Positions 1 through 33,742 of a stretch of 34,676 nucleotides of DNA are shown here, one piece after another. The translations under genes and the position numbers were made by a program. The DNA lies in IMG/VR virus record IMGVR_UViG_2537561603_000002. One strand, given 5' to 3'. The DNA is from a virus (Duplodnaviria; Heunggongvirae; Uroviricota; Caudoviricetes). Below the pieces are notes generated by a model. That model ran no database searches and was not told the DNA's origin. It worked only from the letters and a program-made list of their open reading frames with translations. Every line of letters starts with the position of its first letter. Position 1 is the first letter of the stretch.

Positions 1-1038
1 TTACGGGGTAATGCCAACCGCTGCCGCCACTTTGTCGCCACTTGGCAGCGTTGCCAGAGGATTGAAACGGAGCGCCGTTTCCAGATGTGCGTAACGCATA
101 GTCATTTTTATATCGTGGTGTCCGAGAATTTTTTGTAAGGCCAGAATGTTTCCACCCGACATCATGAAGTGCGCCGCAAACGTATGGCGCAGAACGTGTG
201 TGAGTTGACCGCGAGGGAGCACGATAGACGTTTTTTCCATCACGGATAAAAATTGAAAATAGCAGTCTGTGAAGAAATTGAACCCATCAAGCGCCATGAT
301 CTCTTCGTAAAGCTCTTTACTGATAGGGATGCTTCTGTTTTTCTTCCCCTTCGTTCTTACAAAGGTAATTCGGTATTTGGTCACCTGTGAGCGGGTAAGA
401 TTTACGGCTTCACGCCAGCGTGCGCCTGTGCTTAAGCATATCTTAACTACCAGTGCCAGTATTGGGTCCTGACGTTTGCAATCAGCCAGCAATTCAACAA
501 TCTGCTCATGGGTAAGCCATGCCATCTCTTTTTCTGCGATGGTGAATTTTCGCATGTTCTCCAGTGGGTTCGGATACGACCATTCGCCCAGGCGGGATAG
601 TTCGCTAAAAACACTACTTAGATAGCTTTGCTCCAGGTTAACGGTGACCGGGCTTGCTCCTTTTTTCCATTTCTCGCTGAAGTAGATCTCACCTGTCAGG
701 CGTTTATCTCGATAGTGGGCAAACATTTTAGAGGTGAGATCGGTTGCAAGGGGATTGCCCAGAGCGTCAACCATCAGCAGTAATTTGTCATAGACATGCT
801 GCCCAGCAGTCAGAGATTTACCATGTAGTTTGAACCATAGTTCAACCAAGTCTTTCAGTGTTCGACGATCCACTGATTCACCCAGCCAGGGCTTTGCTTC
901 GGTTTCTTCCATCGTGTGACGCTCAAAAGCCAGAGCTTCGCCTTTGGTGGCGAATTGTTTACGCACACGACGCCCACTACGTCCGGCGGGGTAACATTCG
1001 CAAAGCCATTTTCCTGTGGTGAGTTTTCGTACTGCCAT
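1..1038 (-). CDS. int: Tyrosine integrase (P2/186-like); start taken at internal Met (MAVRKLTTGKW...), the ORF is open to 1194
   Basis: Translation has the P2-Int-like N-terminus (GRSGRRVRKQFATKGEALAFE) and C-terminal catalytic region (HVLRHTFAAHFMMSGGNILALQKILGHHDIKMTMRYAHL) with the R..HxxR..Y signature. Stop codon lies at 1-3, so the 3' end abuts the window edge. Confidence 0.85.
   Translation of the reverse strand: MAVRKLTTGKWLCECYPAGRSGRRVRKQFATKGEALAFERHTMEETEAKPWLGESVDRRTLKDLVELWFKLHGKSLTAGQHVYDKLLLMVDALGNPLATDLTSKMFAHYRDKRLTGEIYFSEKWKKGASPVTVNLEQSYLSSVFSELSRLGEWSYPNPLENMRKFTIAEKEMAWLTHEQIVELLADCKRQDPILALVVKICLSTGARWREAVNLTRSQVTKYRITFVRTKGKKNRSIPISKELYEEIMALDGFNFFTDCYFQFLSVMEKTSIVLPRGQLTHVLRHTFAAHFMMSGGNILALQKILGHHDIKMTMRYAHLETALRFNPLATLPSGDKVAAAVGITP
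19..40. repeat. Candidate attL core; 22-bp direct repeat with 31822-31843 (21/22 identical)
   Basis: cgctgccgccactttgtcgcca here versus cgctgccgccattttgtcgcca at 31822-31843. The two copies bracket the prophage, int-proximal and ogr-proximal. Confidence 0.55.
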
Positions 1039-1226
1039 AAAAAATGCCCTCCAGTGGAGAGCATTTTTACTGTATGTATAACCAGTGTCAATGTATGAAA
1101 TCCTGTGACGATACATCTCACTGAAGCCATAATGAAGTTGGCTATTCTTTTTGCTATGTGAGTATGTAAATTTTGCGGCTAACCTGCGGCTCATTTTTAT
1201 TTTAGGCGCAGATATAAAAGCAAAAG

Positions 1227-1418
1227 TTATCGTGAGTTTTTAGTACAGATTTTTTTGGATTTACTAATAGTTCCATCATTGCAAACGAATTTGCCATCTG
1301 AGGTACAGTGAGAAACACCTCCCTTTTTCCCTGAGCAGGGATAATTTCTAGCATAGGTAGTTAGTGGGTTTAATAACAAAGAACATGACAAAACCACAAA
1401 AAATACCTTACCAAGCAT
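1227..1418 (-). CDS. Small secreted or lipoprotein-like Cys-rich hypothetical protein (63 aa), AT-rich cargo between int and repressor
   Basis: ORF with N-terminal hydrophobic signal-like segment ([23 protein letters not shown]) and 6 Cys in the mature part; local AT-richness differs from the phage backbone. Confidence 0.4.
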
Positions 1419-1433
1419 AGTTTCCTCCCGGTA

Positions 1434-2090
1434 CTATTTAACATACTTGACTGTTAAACTTATAATTTTACCAATTATTTCAATGTCTTCTATCTTGCAT
1501 TCGAAGGCTCTGTTTCCACCCTCGACGAAGATTCTTCCACCGGGTAAACGAGTAATGTCACGGATCGTTATTTCGCCATCAATACTTATTATCCATTTAC
1601 CATCACGTATATCATCAAATTCTTTATCACAAATAAATTCAGAATTGTTATCTGTGATGACAAAAGGTTTTTTAAACGTAGAGGGTAGAAATCCCTTATC
1701 AAAAATATAAAAACCGTCTTTCTGCAATGCTCCATCAGACAATAAATATTTTTCTACTTCTATAGTATTTGTATTTGCTGATGCTTGCTTTGAACCATGC
1801 CCTGTTGTTAGCCAATTAAGCGAGGTGCCCGTTTCAAGGGCGCACTGGATTACCCAATCTGCTGGAAAAATATCACGCATATAGCGCGTTGCCATGGTGC
1901 TCTTAGAAACACCTAAATGATCACAGAGAGCCTGACGGGTACCGAACCCATATGCTTCAACTAAACGTTCTATGGCTTTCTTACCGCCGCTATTGAAATC
2001 CACAAGTCCTCCAAAGAAATCCAAAATTCGTTGACAGATTCCAAAAGCGATCTTAAGGTTGAACCAGAAGTGTTCTTTTGGAGCCTTCAC
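1434..2090 (-). CDS. Immunity repressor, phage 186 CI-like (HTH)
   Basis: 218-aa ORF divergent from the apl-like gene; helix-turn-helix-like segment (RQALCDHLGVSKSTMATRY) and 186 CI-like flanking motifs (VEAYGFG, CALETGTSLNWLTTGHG). Position between int and the early operon matches P2/186 architecture. Confidence 0.7.
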   Translation of the reverse strand: MKAPKEHFWFNLKIAFGICQRILDFFGGLVDFNSGGKKAIERLVEAYGFGTRQALCDHLGVSKSTMATRYMRDIFPADWVIQCALETGTSLNWLTTGHGSKQASANTNTIEVEKYLLSDGALQKDGFYIFDKGFLPSTFKKPFVITDNNSEFICDKEFDDIRDGKWIISIDGEITIRDITRLPGGRIFVEGGNRAFECKIEDIEIIGKIISLTVKYVK

Positions 2091-2926: not shown

Positions 2927-2933
2927 GGTGCTT

Positions 2934-3134
2934 ATGCTGACGAAAGAACCATCATTTGCATCGCTGCTGGTAAATCAAAGCCCGGCAATGCACTACGGTC
3001 ACGGCTGGATCATGGGTGAGGATGGTAAACGCTGGCATCCGTGCCGTTCACAAGATGAATTGCTGGCAGAACTATCTACGAAAAAACGGGGGAACAAATG
3101 GCTATTGAAGGCGCTGCGGCTACTGTTCCATTAA
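2934..3134 (+). CDS. Early-operon hypothetical protein (66 aa)
   Basis: ORF with SD-like gaggtg 4 nt before ATG 2934; tightly packed in the early operon. Confidence 0.45.
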   Translation: MLTKEPSFASLLVNQSPAMHYGHGWIMGEDGKRWHPCRSQDELLAELSTKKRGNKWLLKALRLLFH

Positions 3135-3439
3135 GCCCCGGTGAACGCCTGAATGGACTTAATCACATTGCGGAGTTAAGGGCGAAAGTTTTTGGCCTGA
3201 ATATTGAGTCAGAGCTTGAGCGGTTTATTAAAGATATGCGTGATCCACGGGATATCAATAGCGAACAAAATAAACGGGCACTGGCTGCCATATTCTTTAT
3301 GGCAAAAATTCCAGCTGAACGTCATAGCATCAGCATTAATGAGCTGACCACTGACGAAAAGCGGGAGTTGATTAAAGCAATGAATCATTTTCGTGCAGTG
3401 GTGAGCTTATTTCCCAGACGGCTAACCATGCCGAATTAA
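3098..3439 (+). CDS. Early-operon hypothetical protein (113 aa)
   Basis: ORF overlapping the end of the preceding gene, same strand, in the early operon. Confidence 0.45.
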   Translation: MAIEGAAATVPLSPGERLNGLNHIAELRAKVFGLNIESELERFIKDMRDPRDINSEQNKRALAAIFFMAKIPAERHSISINELTTDEKRELIKAMNHFRAVVSLFPRRLTMPN

Positions 3440-3506
3440 CCAGCTAATGAAATTAATGGCGTAAACCCGCCGGGCATCCCTTTATCTAAATTCAGGAGAA
3501 TTGATT

Positions 3507-3740
3507 ATGCGTAATATTGAAACCCTCACGACTAAAACCGGACCGGATGACGCAGGGCTTAATATTTTACTGACAGAGGCTCGTCTGGAAGAACGCCGGG
3601 CAAGGGCTGAAGCAATGGCTGCCCGCCTTGATAGTCTTGCGTGTCATATCACATCCCGCCAGCTAAACCACGTCGAAGCGGCAGAACTGCTGCGTGTGAC
3701 CGCTGAAGCAATCCAGAACGAAGCGCAGGAGATCCACTAA
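3507..3740 (+). CDS. Early-operon hypothetical protein (77 aa)
   Basis: ATG at 3507 preceded by SD aggaga; coiled-coil-like sequence. Confidence 0.45.
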   Translation: MRNIETLTTKTGPDDAGLNILLTEARLEERRARAEAMAARLDSLACHITSRQLNHVEAAELLRVTAEAIQNEAQEIH

Positions 3741-3967
3741 TGGCTGATGCAATGGATCTCGTACAGCAGCGCGTTGAAGAAGAACGCCAGCGCCATATCC
3801 GTGCTGCCCGTGCCAAAACACCGGGCGTGTCTCGCGTGCTTTGCATTGAATGTGAAGCGCCAATTCCGCCAGCACGCCGCCGCGCCATTCCAGGAGTGCA
3901 GCTTTGCATTACCTGTCAGGAAATCGCAGAGCTGAAAGGCAAACATTACAACGGAGGTGCTGTATGA
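3740..3967 (+). CDS. TraR/DksA-family C4 zinc-finger protein (75 aa)
   Basis: CxxC...CxxC arrangement ([26 protein letters not shown]) typical of phage TraR/DksA-like zinc fingers; start overlaps the previous stop (TAATG). Confidence 0.6.
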
Positions 3968-4266
3968 CAGGGGCTGTGCGTATCCATCAATTAAAAATTG
4001 CACCTAAGTATTTCAACGCTGTGGTTGCAGGTCAAAAGACGGCTGAACTTCGTAAAGACGATCGTGGCTATAAAGTTGGTGATGTTCTTTCTCTTTGCGA
4101 ATGGAAGCATGGCGTATTTACGGGTAGGGAATGGGCCGCGGTTATCTCTCATGTGCTTCCGGTTAATGACGTCATGGCAGTTACAGAACAATGGGTGATG
4201 CTATCAATTCGCTCATTAACCCCATTAGAAGCTTTAGGATATGTTATTGCAGGAGGTGCTGTATGA
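3964..4266 (+). CDS. ASCH/DUF3850-like (PUA-fold) small protein (100 aa)
   Basis: ORF from ATG 3964, translationally coupled to neighbours; family assignment is by recalled similarity and is tentative. Confidence 0.4.
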
Positions 4267-8245: not shown

Positions 8246-8986
8246 TCAGTTTTCTTTGAATTTTTCACTTAATCGTTTCGTCAATACTTCGACAGATTCT
8301 TTGCGACCGGAGAACAAGTCATTGACGACGTACTCCATAATCTCAAAAGCATCCTCAATGTCTTTGACTTTTACTTCATCGTAGGTATGGCTTCCGGCAT
8401 TTCCTAAAAATTTAATTGCCATAAGAGGTCTTGAAAACGATCCGTATAATTCAGGTAGCATCCCTAAACGGTGGTGTAGAGTTATGCGTTTGCCATTATC
8501 ATTACGTTCAGCTACATCCATAGCGGTTAGCATTCTTTCAACTGAAATTCGAATTAGGTTTGCTGCTGCGCCAGGCTGTATTAGGAAAATGGAAAATGAG
8601 GCTTCAAGCGGTTCGGTAATTTCTTCTGGGCATTTTTCAGGTATTTCGAAAGGATGCAGTGATGGGTAAAAGGTGAAAGGTCTGTGCCATTGATAGTACT
8701 CAATATCATTTCTTTCTTCATCCCAACCTTGTTCCCATCCACTCTTACCAGTACAGGCCACAACTTCACCACATTGCATTCTTGAACAGCGGGCCATGCA
8801 ACTGAAAATAGATGAATCCATTTCTAGTTCAAACCAATCTTCACTGCGGAATTTTCGGGTATCATGTGTGTCATACGAGACGAAACTTTCTTTAATGATC
8901 TGTAGGGTTTTCTGATTGCAGTTAGGGCAGGGCCACTCAACCTGCATATCGTGGAAAAACGCACCAGAGAGCTTGTGCACAGTCAT
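8246..8986 (-). CDS. Cargo hypothetical protein (246 aa): N-terminal Cys-rich (zinc-ribbon-like) region plus C-terminal alpha-helical domain; candidate defence protein
   Basis: Reverse-strand ORF with SD gagga upstream of ATG 8986; CPNC...CxxxCxxxxC...C cysteines; C-terminal region holds an R-x4-H motif (KRITLHH); lower GC than backbone; in the A-to-Q variable region. Confidence 0.55.
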   Translation of the reverse strand: MTVHKLSGAFFHDMQVEWPCPNCNQKTLQIIKESFVSYDTHDTRKFRSEDWFELEMDSSIFSCMARCSRMQCGEVVACTGKSGWEQGWDEERNDIEYYQWHRPFTFYPSLHPFEIPEKCPEEITEPLEASFSIFLIQPGAAANLIRISVERMLTAMDVAERNDNGKRITLHHRLGMLPELYGSFSRPLMAIKFLGNAGSHTYDEVKVKDIEDAFEIMEYVVNDLFSGRKESVEVLTKRLSEKFKEN

Positions 8987-9280: not shown

Positions 9281-9356
9281 GCAGAAGATTATTATTGGTA
9301 CACTGTCGGTGACTCTCTACGCAGATCTTACACATTAATTTCTAATGGGGCATGCT

Positions 9357-10157
9357 ATGATCTTTCTAAGTCATAATCACCGTGACAAAAGGTTTGTAAG
9401 TGTTATAGCGGAAAAACTAGCAGATGTTTATGGGCGTGATAACGTATTCTACGATTCTTGGTCTATCCAACCCGGAGAGGGTATTATTGACAAGATGAAT
9501 TTAGGAATGGAGAATGTATCGTTCTTTTTCTTTTTTGTCACAGAAAATAGCTTGGCAAGTAACATGGTAAAAATGGAATGGCAAAATGCTTTAATTAAGG
9601 CATCGTCCGGGAAGTGTAAATTTATACCAATACGTTGCCAGAATATATCCTTGCCTGCTCTGCTTACTCAAACGCTATATATTGATCTTTATTCGTATGG
9701 GATCGATGTGGCAATAAGACAAATTATAGATGTCATTAATCAACAAAATACGTATATTCCTAATCCTGAGAAGTATTCAAACCTCTCCTATGATATTAAG
9801 GATGATGATGGGGGTAAGATAGTGAAATTATCAGCAATGGATTTTTTAGAACCAATTGCTGATTTTATGATGATTATGGATAATACAATTAAGCATGATG
9901 ATGTTGTTGTTATGGTCAATGGAGAAAGCTCATTCACTCAGGGGTTTATTGAAAATGCATCTTTAGAAAATGGTATGAAAGTAAGTGGTGCCACTGTTGG
10001 CCTAAATCGGGGGTTAACACCAACGATGCCAATGTATGTTTCTCTTAGGTTAAAGGATGGTTCACCTTTGAATATATTTGCGGTGCTACATCGAGTAAGT
10101 ACCGAGCGTTATGCTCCTATACCACATAAAGCCGATGATGCCTTTAGAGTAAAATAA
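9357..10157 (+). CDS. TIR-domain protein (about 266 aa) with C-terminal domain of unknown function; candidate defence effector or sensor
   Basis: N-terminus MIFLSHNHRDKRFV...FYDSWSIQPGEGI...VTENSLASNMVKMEWQNAL follows the TIR pattern (FxSHxxxD, SW, conserved Glu in a W..E motif). AT-rich; alternative start at 9345; stem-loop terminator downstream. Confidence 0.6.
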   Translation: MIFLSHNHRDKRFVSVIAEKLADVYGRDNVFYDSWSIQPGEGIIDKMNLGMENVSFFFFFVTENSLASNMVKMEWQNALIKASSGKCKFIPIRCQNISLPALLTQTLYIDLYSYGIDVAIRQIIDVINQQNTYIPNPEKYSNLSYDIKDDDGGKIVKLSAMDFLEPIADFMMIMDNTIKHDDVVVMVNGESSFTQGFIENASLENGMKVSGATVGLNRGLTPTMPMYVSLRLKDGSPLNIFAVLHRVSTERYAPIPHKADDAFRVK

Positions 10158-32056: not shown

Positions 32057-33742
32057 TTATCCTAATCCTGGCCATACCATGACGATGATTGTCCCTGCCA
32101 GCGTCAGCAGGACGTTGGCGATTGCATAGGTGCCCGCATAGCCCAGCGCCGGGATGTTACTGCGAGCTGTATCACTGATGATCTCCATTGCCGGCGCGCA
32201 GGTGCGTGCGCCCATCATTGCGCCGAACAACAGTGCGCGGTTCATTCGCAATACATAAGCACCGAACAAGAAACAGATAACCACTGGCACAAGACTGACA
32301 ATTAATCCGGCAATCAACATCTGACCGCCAATCGTGCCCAGGCCGTTATTAATACCGCTACCGGCGCTCAGACCAACGCCTGCCATAAACACCATTAAGC
32401 CGAACTCTTTCACCATGCTTAATGCACCCTGCGGAATGTAACCGAAGGTCGGGTGGTTAGCGCGCATAAATCCCAGCATAATTCCGGCGAATAACAACCC
32501 GGCAGCGTTCCCCATGCCGAAACTGAATGTGCTGAACTGGAAGGTGATCATCCCGATCATCAGCCCAATAACAAAGAAGGCGCAGAATGCCAGCAAGTCA
32601 GTGACCTGGCTATGAATCGAGATAAAGCCGATGCGATCGGCGATGGTTTTTACGCGACGGGCATCGCCGCTGACTTGTAAAACGTCACCTTTGTTAAGCA
32701 CGACGTTGTCATCTATCGGCATCTCAATCTGGCTACGAATGACGCGGTTAAGGAAGCAACCGTGATCGGTCAACTTCAGTTGTGCGAGACGTTTGCCAAC
32801 GGCGTTATGGTTTTTAACGACCACTTCTTCAGTGACGATACGCATGTCGAGAAGGTCACGATCGAAAACTTCTTTGCCGTTACGGAAGCTGGGATCGAGT
32901 CGGGCGTGGGCGTCGGGATAGCCTACCAACGCTATTTCATCGCCCATTTGTAGCACAGCATCACCGTCTGGATTCGCCAGAATCCCGTTACGTCGAATAC
33001 GTTCAATGTAGCAGCCAGTTTGTCGATAAATACCCAGTTCACGCAGATTTTTGCCGTCGGTCCAGGCCACCAGCTCCGGGCCGACGCGGTAGGCGCGGAT
33101 CACCGGTAAATAAACCTTACGGTTGGCATCAGTGTCCAGGCCACGTTCGCGGGCGATTTGCTGGGCGCTGGTCTGTAAGTCCTGATGCTGCAATTTCGGC
33201 AAGTAACGCGCACCAACAATCAAACTCACCAGACCGATTAAATAGGTTAAGGCATACCCGAGGCTCAGATTATCCAGTGCCAGTGAGAGCTGCCTGCTTT
33301 CCATGCCGGAATGACGCAGTGTATCGCCAGCACCGACCAGAACCGGTGTTGACGTCATAGAGCCAGCTAACATACCGGCCGTCAGGCCAATATCCCAGCC
33401 AAACAGCTTACCTAACCCTAAGGCGATCACCAGCGCACTGCCAACCATCACCAGTGCTAACATTAGGTAATTTTTCCCATCGCGAAAAAAAATGGAAAAA
33501 AAGTTCGGTCCGGCTTCGACCCCGACGCAGAAAATAAACAGCATAAAGCCAAGATTAAGCGCGTCGGTGTTAATGCTGAAATGTTGTTGGCCTAATAACA
33601 GCGATACGACTAAAACGCCAATGGAATTACCCAGTTGGATCGAACCAAGTCGTAATTTCCCGAGACATAGCCCAAGCGCGAGGACCACAAATAATAACAG
33701 AATGTAATTCCCATTTAACAATTCGGCGACGTTTATATTCAC
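32057..33742 (-). CDS. ybjL: Putative transport protein YbjL (YidE/YbjL family)
   Basis: 561-aa polytopic membrane protein with hydrophobic N- and C-terminal halves and a soluble central region; recognised as E. coli YbjL by sequence recall and by adjacency to ybjM and grxA. Confidence 0.7.

What the first reader, a model, noticed from the sequence alone, without database searches (positions are those of the whole stretch)
1227..1418. Small secreted Cys-rich ORF between integrase and repressor
A 63-aa ORF with a signal-peptide-like N-terminus and six cysteines sits in an AT-rich island between int and the repressor, a common place for lysogenic-conversion morons. It could be a superinfection-exclusion or periplasmic or outer-membrane factor. 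Small size makes the coding call uncertain.
Basis: inference. Interest (0 to 1): 0.4.

Follow-up and report, generated by a model that had tools for sequence, protein, structure and literature searches.

The report
Prophage YdcA-family secreted mini-protein gene
The small ORF is a real, strongly conserved gene for a secreted, disulfide-bonded mini-protein of the known but uncharacterised YdcA family, placed just behind the repressor gene of a 186/P2-like E. coli prophage, so it is probably made in lysogens; what it does is still unknown.

Summary
The ORF at 1227-1418 (minus strand, 63 aa) is real. It has five cysteines, not six: one in the signal peptide and four in the mature part. It scores above the curated cut-off of NCBIfam NF007463, and RefSeq names the identical protein 'YdcA family protein'. 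About 630 of 5,426 complete E. coli genomes carry it, always next to the phage CI repressor gene. The signal peptide varies freely and ends in an invariant Ala. The 40-residue mature peptide (net charge +7) is nearly invariant although synonymous sites are saturated. The gene starts 15 nt after the cI stop codon behind a GGAGG ribosome-binding site. No promoter of its own was found, so it is probably co-transcribed with cI in lysogens. The same placement behind a repressor recurs in Yersinia and Buttiauxella prophages, in Haemophilus phage HP2 (where it is unannotated), and in seven betaproteobacterial loci with a different repressor type, several of them P2-like prophages. A profile-profile comparison links the domain to one lobe of Legionella Dis2, a subunit of the Dot/Icm outer-membrane cap (93% probability). 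The best reading is a periplasmic, envelope-binding protein made by the lysogen. Its target and phenotype are untested. The gene family is already known, so interest is modest.

The parts
1227..1418 (-). CDS of a YdcA-family protein, 63 aa plus stop. Sequence: [63 protein letters not shown]
   Evidence: ORF list and translation. NCBIfam NF007463 115.8 bits against a cut-off of 93. phrog_6000 E=1.9e-34. RefSeq WP_000900883.1 'YdcA family protein' at the same coordinates in E. coli p10B, with an identical ORF.
1350..1418 (-). Codons 1-23: predicted Sec signal peptide, with signal peptidase I cleavage after T-Y-A23
   Evidence: Hydropathy of 2.2-2.7 over residues 1-16. The region is variable across the family but ends in an invariant Ala. 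pN is about equal to pS here. The cleavage site is inferred; no dedicated predictor was available.
1230..1349 (-). Codons 24-63: mature 40-aa peptide with 4 Cys, 7 Lys, 2 Arg and 2 Asp (net +7). Family motif: PCSGxKGG[VI]xxC...F[VI]CxDGxxSxSKKxC
   Evidence: All four Cys are invariant in 78 diverse domains. pN is 0.08-0.22 while pS is 0.7-0.97. The AF2 model of the mature part has pLDDT 82 and shows a short beta-hairpin.
1424..1429 (-). Shine-Dalgarno GGGAGG, 5 nt upstream of the ATG, inside the 15-nt gap after the cI stop codon (1434-1436)
   Evidence: Read directly from the sequence. The GGAGGAAACT-ATG junction is conserved in diverged E. coli alleles L165, L166 and L167.
1434..2003 (-). 186-type CI repressor gene, immediately upstream in the same orientation and the presumed source of transcription. 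The longest possible ORF runs to 2090.
   Evidence: Pfam Phage_CI_repr 3.3e-31 and Phage_CI_C 3.8e-29. RefSeq CDS boundaries.
1040..1068 (-). 13-bp hairpin followed by a U-run, ending 1 nt before the int ATG. It may end the cI-ydcA transcript and/or mask the int ribosome-binding site (GGAGGG lies in its 3' arm).
   Evidence: RNA fold of -23.1 kcal/mol, z=-3.8, 0 of 200 shuffles folding as well. The function is inferred only.
1..1038 (-). P2/186-type tyrosine integrase, the downstream neighbour
   Evidence: Pfam Int_N 6.6e-33 and Phage_integrase 1e-21. RefSeq annotation.

Best explanation
The ORF is a functional gene for a YdcA-family mini-protein carried by a 186/P2-like E. coli prophage. Proposed mechanism: (1) it is transcribed with the cI repressor from the lysogenic promoter, so it is made continuously in lysogens. 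(2) It is translated from its own GGAGG site. (3) It is exported by Sec, and signal peptidase I cleaves after Ala23. (4) The 40-residue, strongly basic (+7) mature peptide is oxidised in the periplasm to two disulfides. This gives a compact knot equivalent to one lobe of Legionella Dis2, a disulfide-pinned subunit lying just under the outer membrane in the Dot/Icm cap. (5) It acts by binding an envelope component in the periplasm near the outer membrane, not by catalysis, and so changes a property of the lysogen's envelope. Shown here: it is a real coding gene, it belongs to the family, it has the architecture of an export signal plus a conserved mature domain, and it recurs behind prophage repressors. 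Inferred: co-transcription with cI, the cleavage site, the disulfides, periplasmic location and homology to the Dis2 lobe. Unknown: the target and the phenotype.
For: Family membership: NF007463 at 115.8 bits against a cut-off of 93; phrog_6000; precomputed PF27300 on all close relatives; RefSeq name 'YdcA family protein'. Selection: the mature domain has pN 0.08-0.22 while pS is 0.7-0.97, and in the signal peptide pN is about equal to pS. Within E. coli, alleles differ by 11 synonymous against 1-3 nonsynonymous changes. Architecture: a variable hydrophobic leader ends in an invariant Ala, and the four Cys are invariant. Expression context: a 15-nt gap after the cI stop, a conserved GGAGG, and no minus-strand promoter- or terminator-like site between cI and the ORF. 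In HP2 the homologue's ATG overlaps the cI stop. Recurrence: about 630 of 5,426 complete E. coli genomes carry it at 90% or higher nucleotide identity, and in every listed row it lies next to a CI-type repressor. The cI-ydcA-int order also occurs in three Yersinia species. In Buttiauxella the gene follows CI with one ORF between and no integrase within the 4-kb flank. Seven betaproteobacterial loci place it on the same strand downstream of an unrelated XRE/S24-type repressor, and several of these also carry a P2 gpD-like tail gene. Dis2 link: Dis2 (7muc_AN) is the top PDB hit by sequence profile, with E=4.5e-5 for the full-length profile and 0.016 for the mature-only profile. hhalign of the YdcA-domain profile against a Dis2 family profile gives 93.4% probability and E=2.4e-7 over 28 columns. 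Several Dis2 homologues carry the same precomputed Pfam family PF27300. Dis2 is also the top Foldseek hit, at probability 0.82. Dis2 is described as two similar lobes pinned by five disulfides near the outer membrane (PMC8486379). Chromosomal E. coli YdcA is described as a 57-aa protein with a signal sequence, predicted periplasmic and of unknown function (PMC11340327).
Confidence: 0.6

Rival explanations
1. Superinfection-exclusion or anti-phage factor. The periplasmic peptide made by the lysogen blocks adsorption, cell-wall penetration or DNA entry of competing phages, or of conjugative DNA.
For: It is placed in the repressor operon, so it would be present before any challenge. The same cI-int slot holds defence-like cargo in relatives: a KAP NTPase and a DUF4041+T5orf172 protein. 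The integrase-primase interval of P2-like phages is reported as a minor defence hotspot (PMC13586616). The predicted envelope location suits an entry block.
Against: There is no match to any PADLOC defence model, and PHROG lists it as unknown function. A chromosomal, non-prophage paralogue (ydcA) is fixed in E. coli and Shigella, and most homologues are not detectably in a prophage immunity context. No experiment exists.
Confidence: 0.2
2. Envelope stress or fitness factor: an extra dose of a YdcA-like periplasmic protein that improves tolerance of acid or organic-acid stress, as suggested for chromosomal ydcA.
For: Deleting ydcA in E. coli W severely reduced growth in 300 mM 3-hydroxypropionate. 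The same paper cites reports that ydcA is induced at pH 5 under YdcI (PMC7642389). The prophage mature domain is about 70% identical to K-12 YdcA.
Against: This is a single high-dose phenotype in one strain, and the same paper calls YdcA's role in 3-HP tolerance unclear. The phenotype disappeared in a yieP deletion background. A paralogue under different regulation need not share the role.
Confidence: 0.15
3. Lipoprotein: cleavage by signal peptidase II before Cys12, giving a lipid-anchored protein.
For: The sequence V-L-S-C12 loosely resembles a lipobox, and K4 supplies an n-region charge. One Yersinia homologue carries a UniRef name 'Lipoprotein'.
Against: Cys12 lies too close to the N-terminus, leaving a hydrophobic region of only about 6 residues. 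Leu at position -2 is atypical. The closest relatives have LFC, LIC or LVC at this position, which break the rule for position -1. Most family members, including K-12 YdcA and HP2, have no Cys in the leader at all, but all have the Ala-x cleavage context before the conserved domain.
Confidence: 0.04
4. Chance ORF in AT-rich non-coding DNA, or the real feature is a regulatory RNA or DNA element of the int-cI region.
For: The ORF is small, GC is low, and it lies near int regulatory sequences.
Against: There are 312 homologous clusters at E<=1e-3 in an exhaustive search. Amino-acid conservation holds while synonymous sites are saturated. Within E. coli the changes are 11 synonymous against 1 nonsynonymous. 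A curated HMM scores above its cut-off. There is no meaningful Rfam match: the only hit is Phe_leader at 23 bits against a gathering score of 55.
Confidence: 0.01

Closest known systems
E. coli K-12 YdcA (57 aa; NCBIfam PRK10040 group NF007462/NF007463; Pfam PF27300 as precomputed in the protein database)
   Same: Same architecture: a signal peptide followed by one PCSGxKGG[VI]SHC...FVCNDGxISxSKKxC domain with four Cys. The mature domains are about 70% identical. The window protein passes the curated cut-off of the sister model NF007463.
   Different: The window copy is carried by a prophage and sits behind cI. ydcA is a chromosomal gene next to rydC and cybB (PMC11340327). The window protein scores below the cut-off of the K-12-type model NF007462 (68.5 against 118), so it belongs to a distinct subfamily. 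Neither protein has a demonstrated function.
Legionella pneumophila Dis2 (Lpg0823), a subunit of the Dot/Icm type IVB secretion outer-membrane cap (PDB 7MUC/7MUD)
   Same: It has a signal peptide and a shared motif, C-x-K-x-GG-[IV]-x-x-C-...-G-x-x-VCN-[ND]-G-x-x-S. Identity to lobe 1 is 46% over 26 residues and to lobe 2 is 33% over 27. Profile-profile probability is 93.4%. It is the top hit in both the sequence and Foldseek searches of the PDB. It is a disulfide-stabilised small domain located under the outer membrane.
   Different: Dis2 has two lobes and ten Cys (five disulfides), is confined to Legionella in my search, and is a stoichiometric part of a secretion machine. The window protein has one lobe and four Cys, is encoded by a prophage, and none of the genes I identified in the window is a T4SS gene. 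The fold match is not statistically significant.
Prophage-encoded envelope exclusion proteins (T4 Imm/Sp, P22 SieA, HK97 gp15, T5 Llp, phi80 Cor) - named from general knowledge, not tested here
   Same: They are small envelope-targeted proteins encoded by phages, some of them prophages, that modify the host envelope.
   Different: No sequence or profile similarity was found. Those proteins are membrane-embedded or lipoproteins, whereas this one is predicted to be a soluble, disulfide-rich periplasmic peptide. No exclusion phenotype is known for any YdcA-family member.

Membership tests
YdcA family (NCBIfam NF007463 / PRK10040; PF27300) | Profile HMM score above the curated cut-off | tested here: met
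   NF007463 scores 115.8 bits against a cut-off of 93, over residues 5-63 and profile positions 1-58 of 58. The local Pfam copy lacks PF27300, but the protein database lists PF27300.1 for the cluster holding this exact sequence.
YdcA family (NCBIfam NF007463 / PRK10040; PF27300) | N-terminal cleavable signal peptide preceding the conserved domain | tested here: inconclusive
   The hydrophobic leader, an invariant Ala at position -1 and relaxed selection on the leader all fit. No dedicated predictor or experiment was available.
YdcA family (NCBIfam NF007463 / PRK10040; PF27300) | Single ~35-aa domain with four conserved Cys and the KGG[VI]/F[VI]CxDGxxS motifs | tested here: met
   C28, C38, C46 and C58 align with the invariant Cys columns of 78 diverse domains, and the motif residues are present.
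Dis2 (Lpg0823) family of Dot/Icm outer-membrane-cap subunits | Two tandem lobes with ten conserved Cys (five disulfides) | tested here: not met
   The window protein has one lobe and four mature Cys. The Dis2 alignment shows ten invariant Cys in two lobes (PMC8486379).
Dis2 (Lpg0823) family of Dot/Icm outer-membrane-cap subunits | Detectable homology of the lobe domain | tested here: inconclusive
Dis2 (Lpg0823) family of Dot/Icm outer-membrane-cap subunits | Physical association with a type IVB secretion system | not testable with these tools
   The window is a P2/186-like prophage plus a host permease gene. Binding partners cannot be determined computationally here.
Bacterial lipoproteins | Lipobox [LVI][ASTVI][GAS]C after an adequate hydrophobic region, with the Cys conserved | tested here: not met
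   In V-L-S-C12 the residue at position -2 is Leu. The Cys is at position 12, and K4 falls inside the region that must be uncharged. The Cys is absent from most homologues.
Moron (autonomous prophage cargo unit with its own promoter and terminator) | Own promoter upstream and terminator downstream, with presence/absence polymorphism among related phages | tested here: inconclusive
   The scan found no minus-strand promoter-like site between cI and the ORF, and the gap is only 15 nt. A terminator-like hairpin lies about 160 nt downstream. The slot content is polymorphic among related phages.
Known anti-phage defence or superinfection-exclusion systems | Similarity to a catalogued defence protein, or a demonstrated exclusion phenotype | tested here: not met
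   PADLOC returned no family at E<=1. The PHROG category is 'unknown function'. The phenotype cannot be tested here.

The most novel reading that the evidence does not exclude
YdcA-family peptides may be free-standing single-lobe versions of the Dis2 module that docks under the outer membrane in the Legionella Dot/Icm machine. The copies that P2/186-like prophages place in their repressor operons would then be a new class of periplasmic exclusion factor. They would dock onto an outer-membrane-spanning complex (a phage receptor, secretin or conjugation channel) and block entry of foreign DNA into the lysogen.
Probability: 0.1. Interest if true: 0.7.

Novelty: already known. Interest (0 to 1): 0.3.

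Why it matters
The gene is common: roughly one in nine complete E. coli genomes carries it in a prophage. It is under strong purifying selection and is probably expressed whenever the prophage is silent, yet no member of its family has a known function. Two findings give experimenters a concrete starting point. First, it recurs directly behind unrelated repressor types in prophages of Gamma- and Betaproteobacteria, many of them P2-like. Second, its domain probably corresponds to one lobe of the Dot/Icm cap subunit Dis2. A single small deletion could be tested for phage exclusion, conjugation and envelope-stress phenotypes, and the periplasmic binding partner could be pulled down. If the Dis2 link holds, it would also give the 'species-specific' Legionella subunit a wide family of relatives. 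None of this changes the classification: it is an annotated member of a named family, not a new kind of element.

Full report
**What is there.** The window begins with a P2/186-type integrase gene on the minus strand (1-1038). It is followed by a 188-nt spacer, the ORF in question (1227-1418, minus strand), a 15-nt gap, and a 186-type CI repressor gene (1434-2003). Then come the divergent early genes: a small HTH/Cox-like protein at 2149-2352, CII at 2417-2926, Fil and others. The same arrangement, with an identical ORF, is annotated in RefSeq E. coli genomes. There the prophage lies beside rcdA and ybjJ, and the ORF product WP_000900883.1 is named 'YdcA family protein'. The right end of the window (32057-33742) encodes an Asp-Al_Ex/TrkA_C permease, which I take to be a host gene.

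**Checking the observation.** The ORF is exactly as described in position and length: 63 aa with an ATG start. The N-terminus has one Lys, a 12-residue hydrophobic core, and a polar stretch ending T-Y-A before R24. There are five, one in the leader (C12) and four in the mature part (C28, C38, C46, C58). The low-GC block is also not specific to the ORF. It covers cI (38.5%), the ORF (35%) and the spacer (37%), against 51% for the window.

**Is it a gene?** Yes.
- It scores 115.8 bits on NCBIfam NF007463, whose curated cut-off is 93, and E=1.9e-34 on phrog_6000.
- The word-indexed search found 64 clusters.
- The exhaustive search of 1.84 billion representatives found 312 clusters at E<=1e-3, including proteins with two or three tandem copies of the domain.
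- Alignments show the classic pattern of a secreted protein. The leader is freely variable, ends in an invariant Ala, and is followed by a nearly invariant mature peptide, [34 protein letters not shown].
- Codon analysis confirms this. Between the window and homologues from Yersinia, Buttiauxella, Haemophilus phage HP2, E. coli K-12-type ydcA and others, synonymous sites in the mature part are saturated (pS 0.72-0.97) while pN is only 0.08-0.22. In the leader, pN is about equal to pS.
- Two E. coli alleles about 6-7% diverged in DNA differ from the window by 11 synonymous changes against 1 and 3 nonsynonymous changes.
- No Rfam family explains the region.

**Expression context.** The ATG lies 15 nt after the cI stop codon and 5 nt after GGGAGG, and this junction is conserved in diverged alleles. 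The consensus scan found no minus-strand promoter-like or terminator-like site between cI and the ORF. I infer, without direct evidence, that the gene is the second cistron of the lysogenic cI transcript. About 160 nt downstream, a 13-bp hairpin with a U-run (1040-1068; -23.1 kcal/mol; z=-3.8) ends one base before the int ATG and contains the int ribosome-binding sequence. It may terminate the cI-ydcA transcript, mask int translation, or both. I did not test this.

**Recurrence.**
- A 241-nt probe over the ORF finds it in 648 of 5,426 complete E. coli genomes, 632 of them at 90% or higher identity. In the 29 listed rows at that identity it lies next to a CI-type repressor.
- Among one-genome-per-species loci, the order cI-ydcA-int recurs in Yersinia alsatica, Y. 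aldovae and Y. nurmii.
- Buttiauxella has the gene after CI with one extra ORF in between.
- In Haemophilus phage HP2 (and S2), an unannotated 60-aa homologue starts at the last base of cI and precedes orf1(S) and int.
- Seven betaproteobacterial loci (Iodobacter, four Comamonas, a Hydrogenophilales MAG and Aquabacterium) place a homologue on the same strand downstream of an unrelated XRE/S24-type repressor. There is often another exported or membrane protein in between, and in several a P2 gpD-like tail gene lies nearby.
- The family also occurs in Moraxella and Acinetobacter phages outside the immunity region, on Acinetobacter and Rhizobium plasmids, and on two tiny mobilisable plasmids. On those two plasmids it is followed by a homologous membrane-anchored protein.
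- Most chromosomal homologues are not detectably next to a repressor.
- The cI-int slot itself is a cargo site. Related phages hold there a KAP NTPase (together with the YdcA gene), a DUF4041+T5orf172 protein, or a 349-aa hypothetical protein. A 2026 survey lists the integrase-primase interval of P2-like phages as a minor defence hotspot (PMC13586616).

**The product.** The mature peptide has 40 residues with 7 Lys, 2 Arg, 2 Asp and 1 His, giving a net charge of +7, and four invariant Cys. AlphaFold2 models give pLDDT 76.6 for the full-length protein and 82.4 for the mature part, with a short beta-hairpin. A lipoprotein reading is unlikely. The context of C12 breaks the lipobox rules, and the Cys is missing in most relatives.

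**A lead on what it resembles.** A profile of the family searched against all PDB sequences gives one credible hit, chain AN of 7MUC/7MUD. This is Dis2 (Lpg0823), a subunit of the Legionella Dot/Icm outer-membrane cap (E=4.5e-5). That alignment included the signal peptides, so I repeated the search with a 78-sequence profile of the mature domain only. Dis2 remained the top hit, but at E=0.016, close to hits on LDL-receptor modules that share Cys-rich composition. Further tests:
- BLASTP gives 46% identity over 26 residues to lobe 1 and 33% over 27 to lobe 2.
- hhalign against a single Dis2 homologue gives 85.6% probability.
- hhalign against a 29-sequence Dis2 family profile gives 93.4% probability and E=2.4e-7 over 28 columns.
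- Several Dis2 homologues carry the same precomputed Pfam family, PF27300, as the window protein.

The structure paper describes Dis2 as two lobes similar in sequence and structure, pinned by five disulfides and positioned near the outer membrane. It found no structural relatives and could not infer a function (PMC8486379). I conclude that the YdcA domain is probably, but not certainly, a single-lobe homologue of the Dis2 lobes. No paper in the searchable library links the two.

**What is known about the family.** E. coli YdcA is described as a 57-aa protein with a signal sequence, predicted periplasmic and of unknown function (PMC11340327). One study found that deleting ydcA in E. coli W severely reduced growth in 300 mM 3-hydroxypropionate. 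It cites reports that ydcA is induced at pH 5 under YdcI, but calls the role unclear (PMC7642389).

**Interpretation.** The best-supported account is a Sec-exported, disulfide-bonded, strongly basic periplasmic mini-protein. It is produced together with the repressor in lysogens and acts by binding something in the envelope. Whether the outcome is exclusion of other phages or DNA, stress tolerance, or something else cannot be decided with these tools. I give 0.6 to the general account, about 0.2 to exclusion and about 0.15 to a stress or fitness role. The lipoprotein and non-coding alternatives get very little.

**Novelty and score.** The gene, the protein and its family are already in the public databases under a family name, so the finding is 'already known' as a kind. 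Two things are modestly new: the recurrent placement behind unrelated repressor types in prophages of two proteobacterial classes, and the probable link to Dis2. Both are leads rather than results. Interest: 0.3.

Noticed in passing
window 1040-1068 (minus strand), with a promoter-like site at 1063-1091: A 13-bp hairpin with a U-run (-23.1 kcal/mol, z=-3.8) ends one base before the int ATG and contains the int GGAGGG ribosome-binding sequence. A TTGACA-17-AAAAAT promoter-like site overlaps its 5' side. A similar TTGACT...TATACAGTAAA element precedes int in a Yersinia prophage (L088 about 2527-2560). This may be a regulatory device for int (terminator, translational mask, or both).
   Followed up: partly
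window 8246-8986 (-) and 9345-10157 (+): There are two cargo genes between the replication gene and the portal gene, which is the main P2 defence hotspot. One is a DUF4145 protein with weak similarity to PD-T7-4. The other is a TIR_2-domain protein with weak TIR-NLR, ThsB and PDC-S66 matches. They are a likely anti-phage pair.
   Followed up: partly
window 32057-33742 (-): This ORF is a permease with Asp-Al_Ex and TrkA_C domains, which I take to be a host chromosomal gene. If so, the last ~2.7 kb of the window lie outside the prophage.
   Followed up: partly
L002 (Haemophilus phage HP2, NC_003315.1) 2420-2602; same in phage S2: A 60-aa YdcA-family ORF is not annotated in the reference HP2 and S2 records. 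Its ATG overlaps the end of cI, and it precedes orf1(S), an exported tRNA_anti-like OB-fold protein, and int.
   Followed up: yes
L166 142-1473; L169 3076-4752; L168 1851-2900: The cI-int slot of related Peduoviridae holds different cargo. E. coli FDAARGOS_1251 has a KAP-family NTPase inserted after the YdcA gene. Phage vB_EcoM-813R9 has a DUF4041+T5orf172/MUG113 protein. Klebsiella phage 4LV2017 has a 349-aa hypothetical protein.
   Followed up: partly
L115, L117, L118, L121, L125, L133, L137, L143, L150-L153, L157 and others (homologue ORFs): Many alpha- and betaproteobacterial homologues carry a second conserved C-terminal module, CxCRSGxYCTGPRGGxYCxxDSGxKSYxRR, after a linker. Providencia homologues (L107, L123) are instead fused to long Lys-rich repeats (DKDSAKAIKEKATKAT...).
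   Followed up: no
L170 (pGFJ6, 4.1 kb) 640-1609; L171 (pA40P1, 5.4 kb) 2932-4091: Two very small Moraxellaceae plasmids carry a YdcA-family gene. In both it is followed directly by a homologous protein (E=2e-8) with an N-terminal membrane anchor, which may be a conserved two-gene envelope module.
   Followed up: partly
window 1438-1466 (+): A near-consensus sigma-70-like site (TTAACA-17-TATAAT, 11 of 12) points antisense into cI. Its -35 hexamer is not conserved in a diverged E. coli allele (L165), so it is probably chance in AT-rich DNA.
   Followed up: partly
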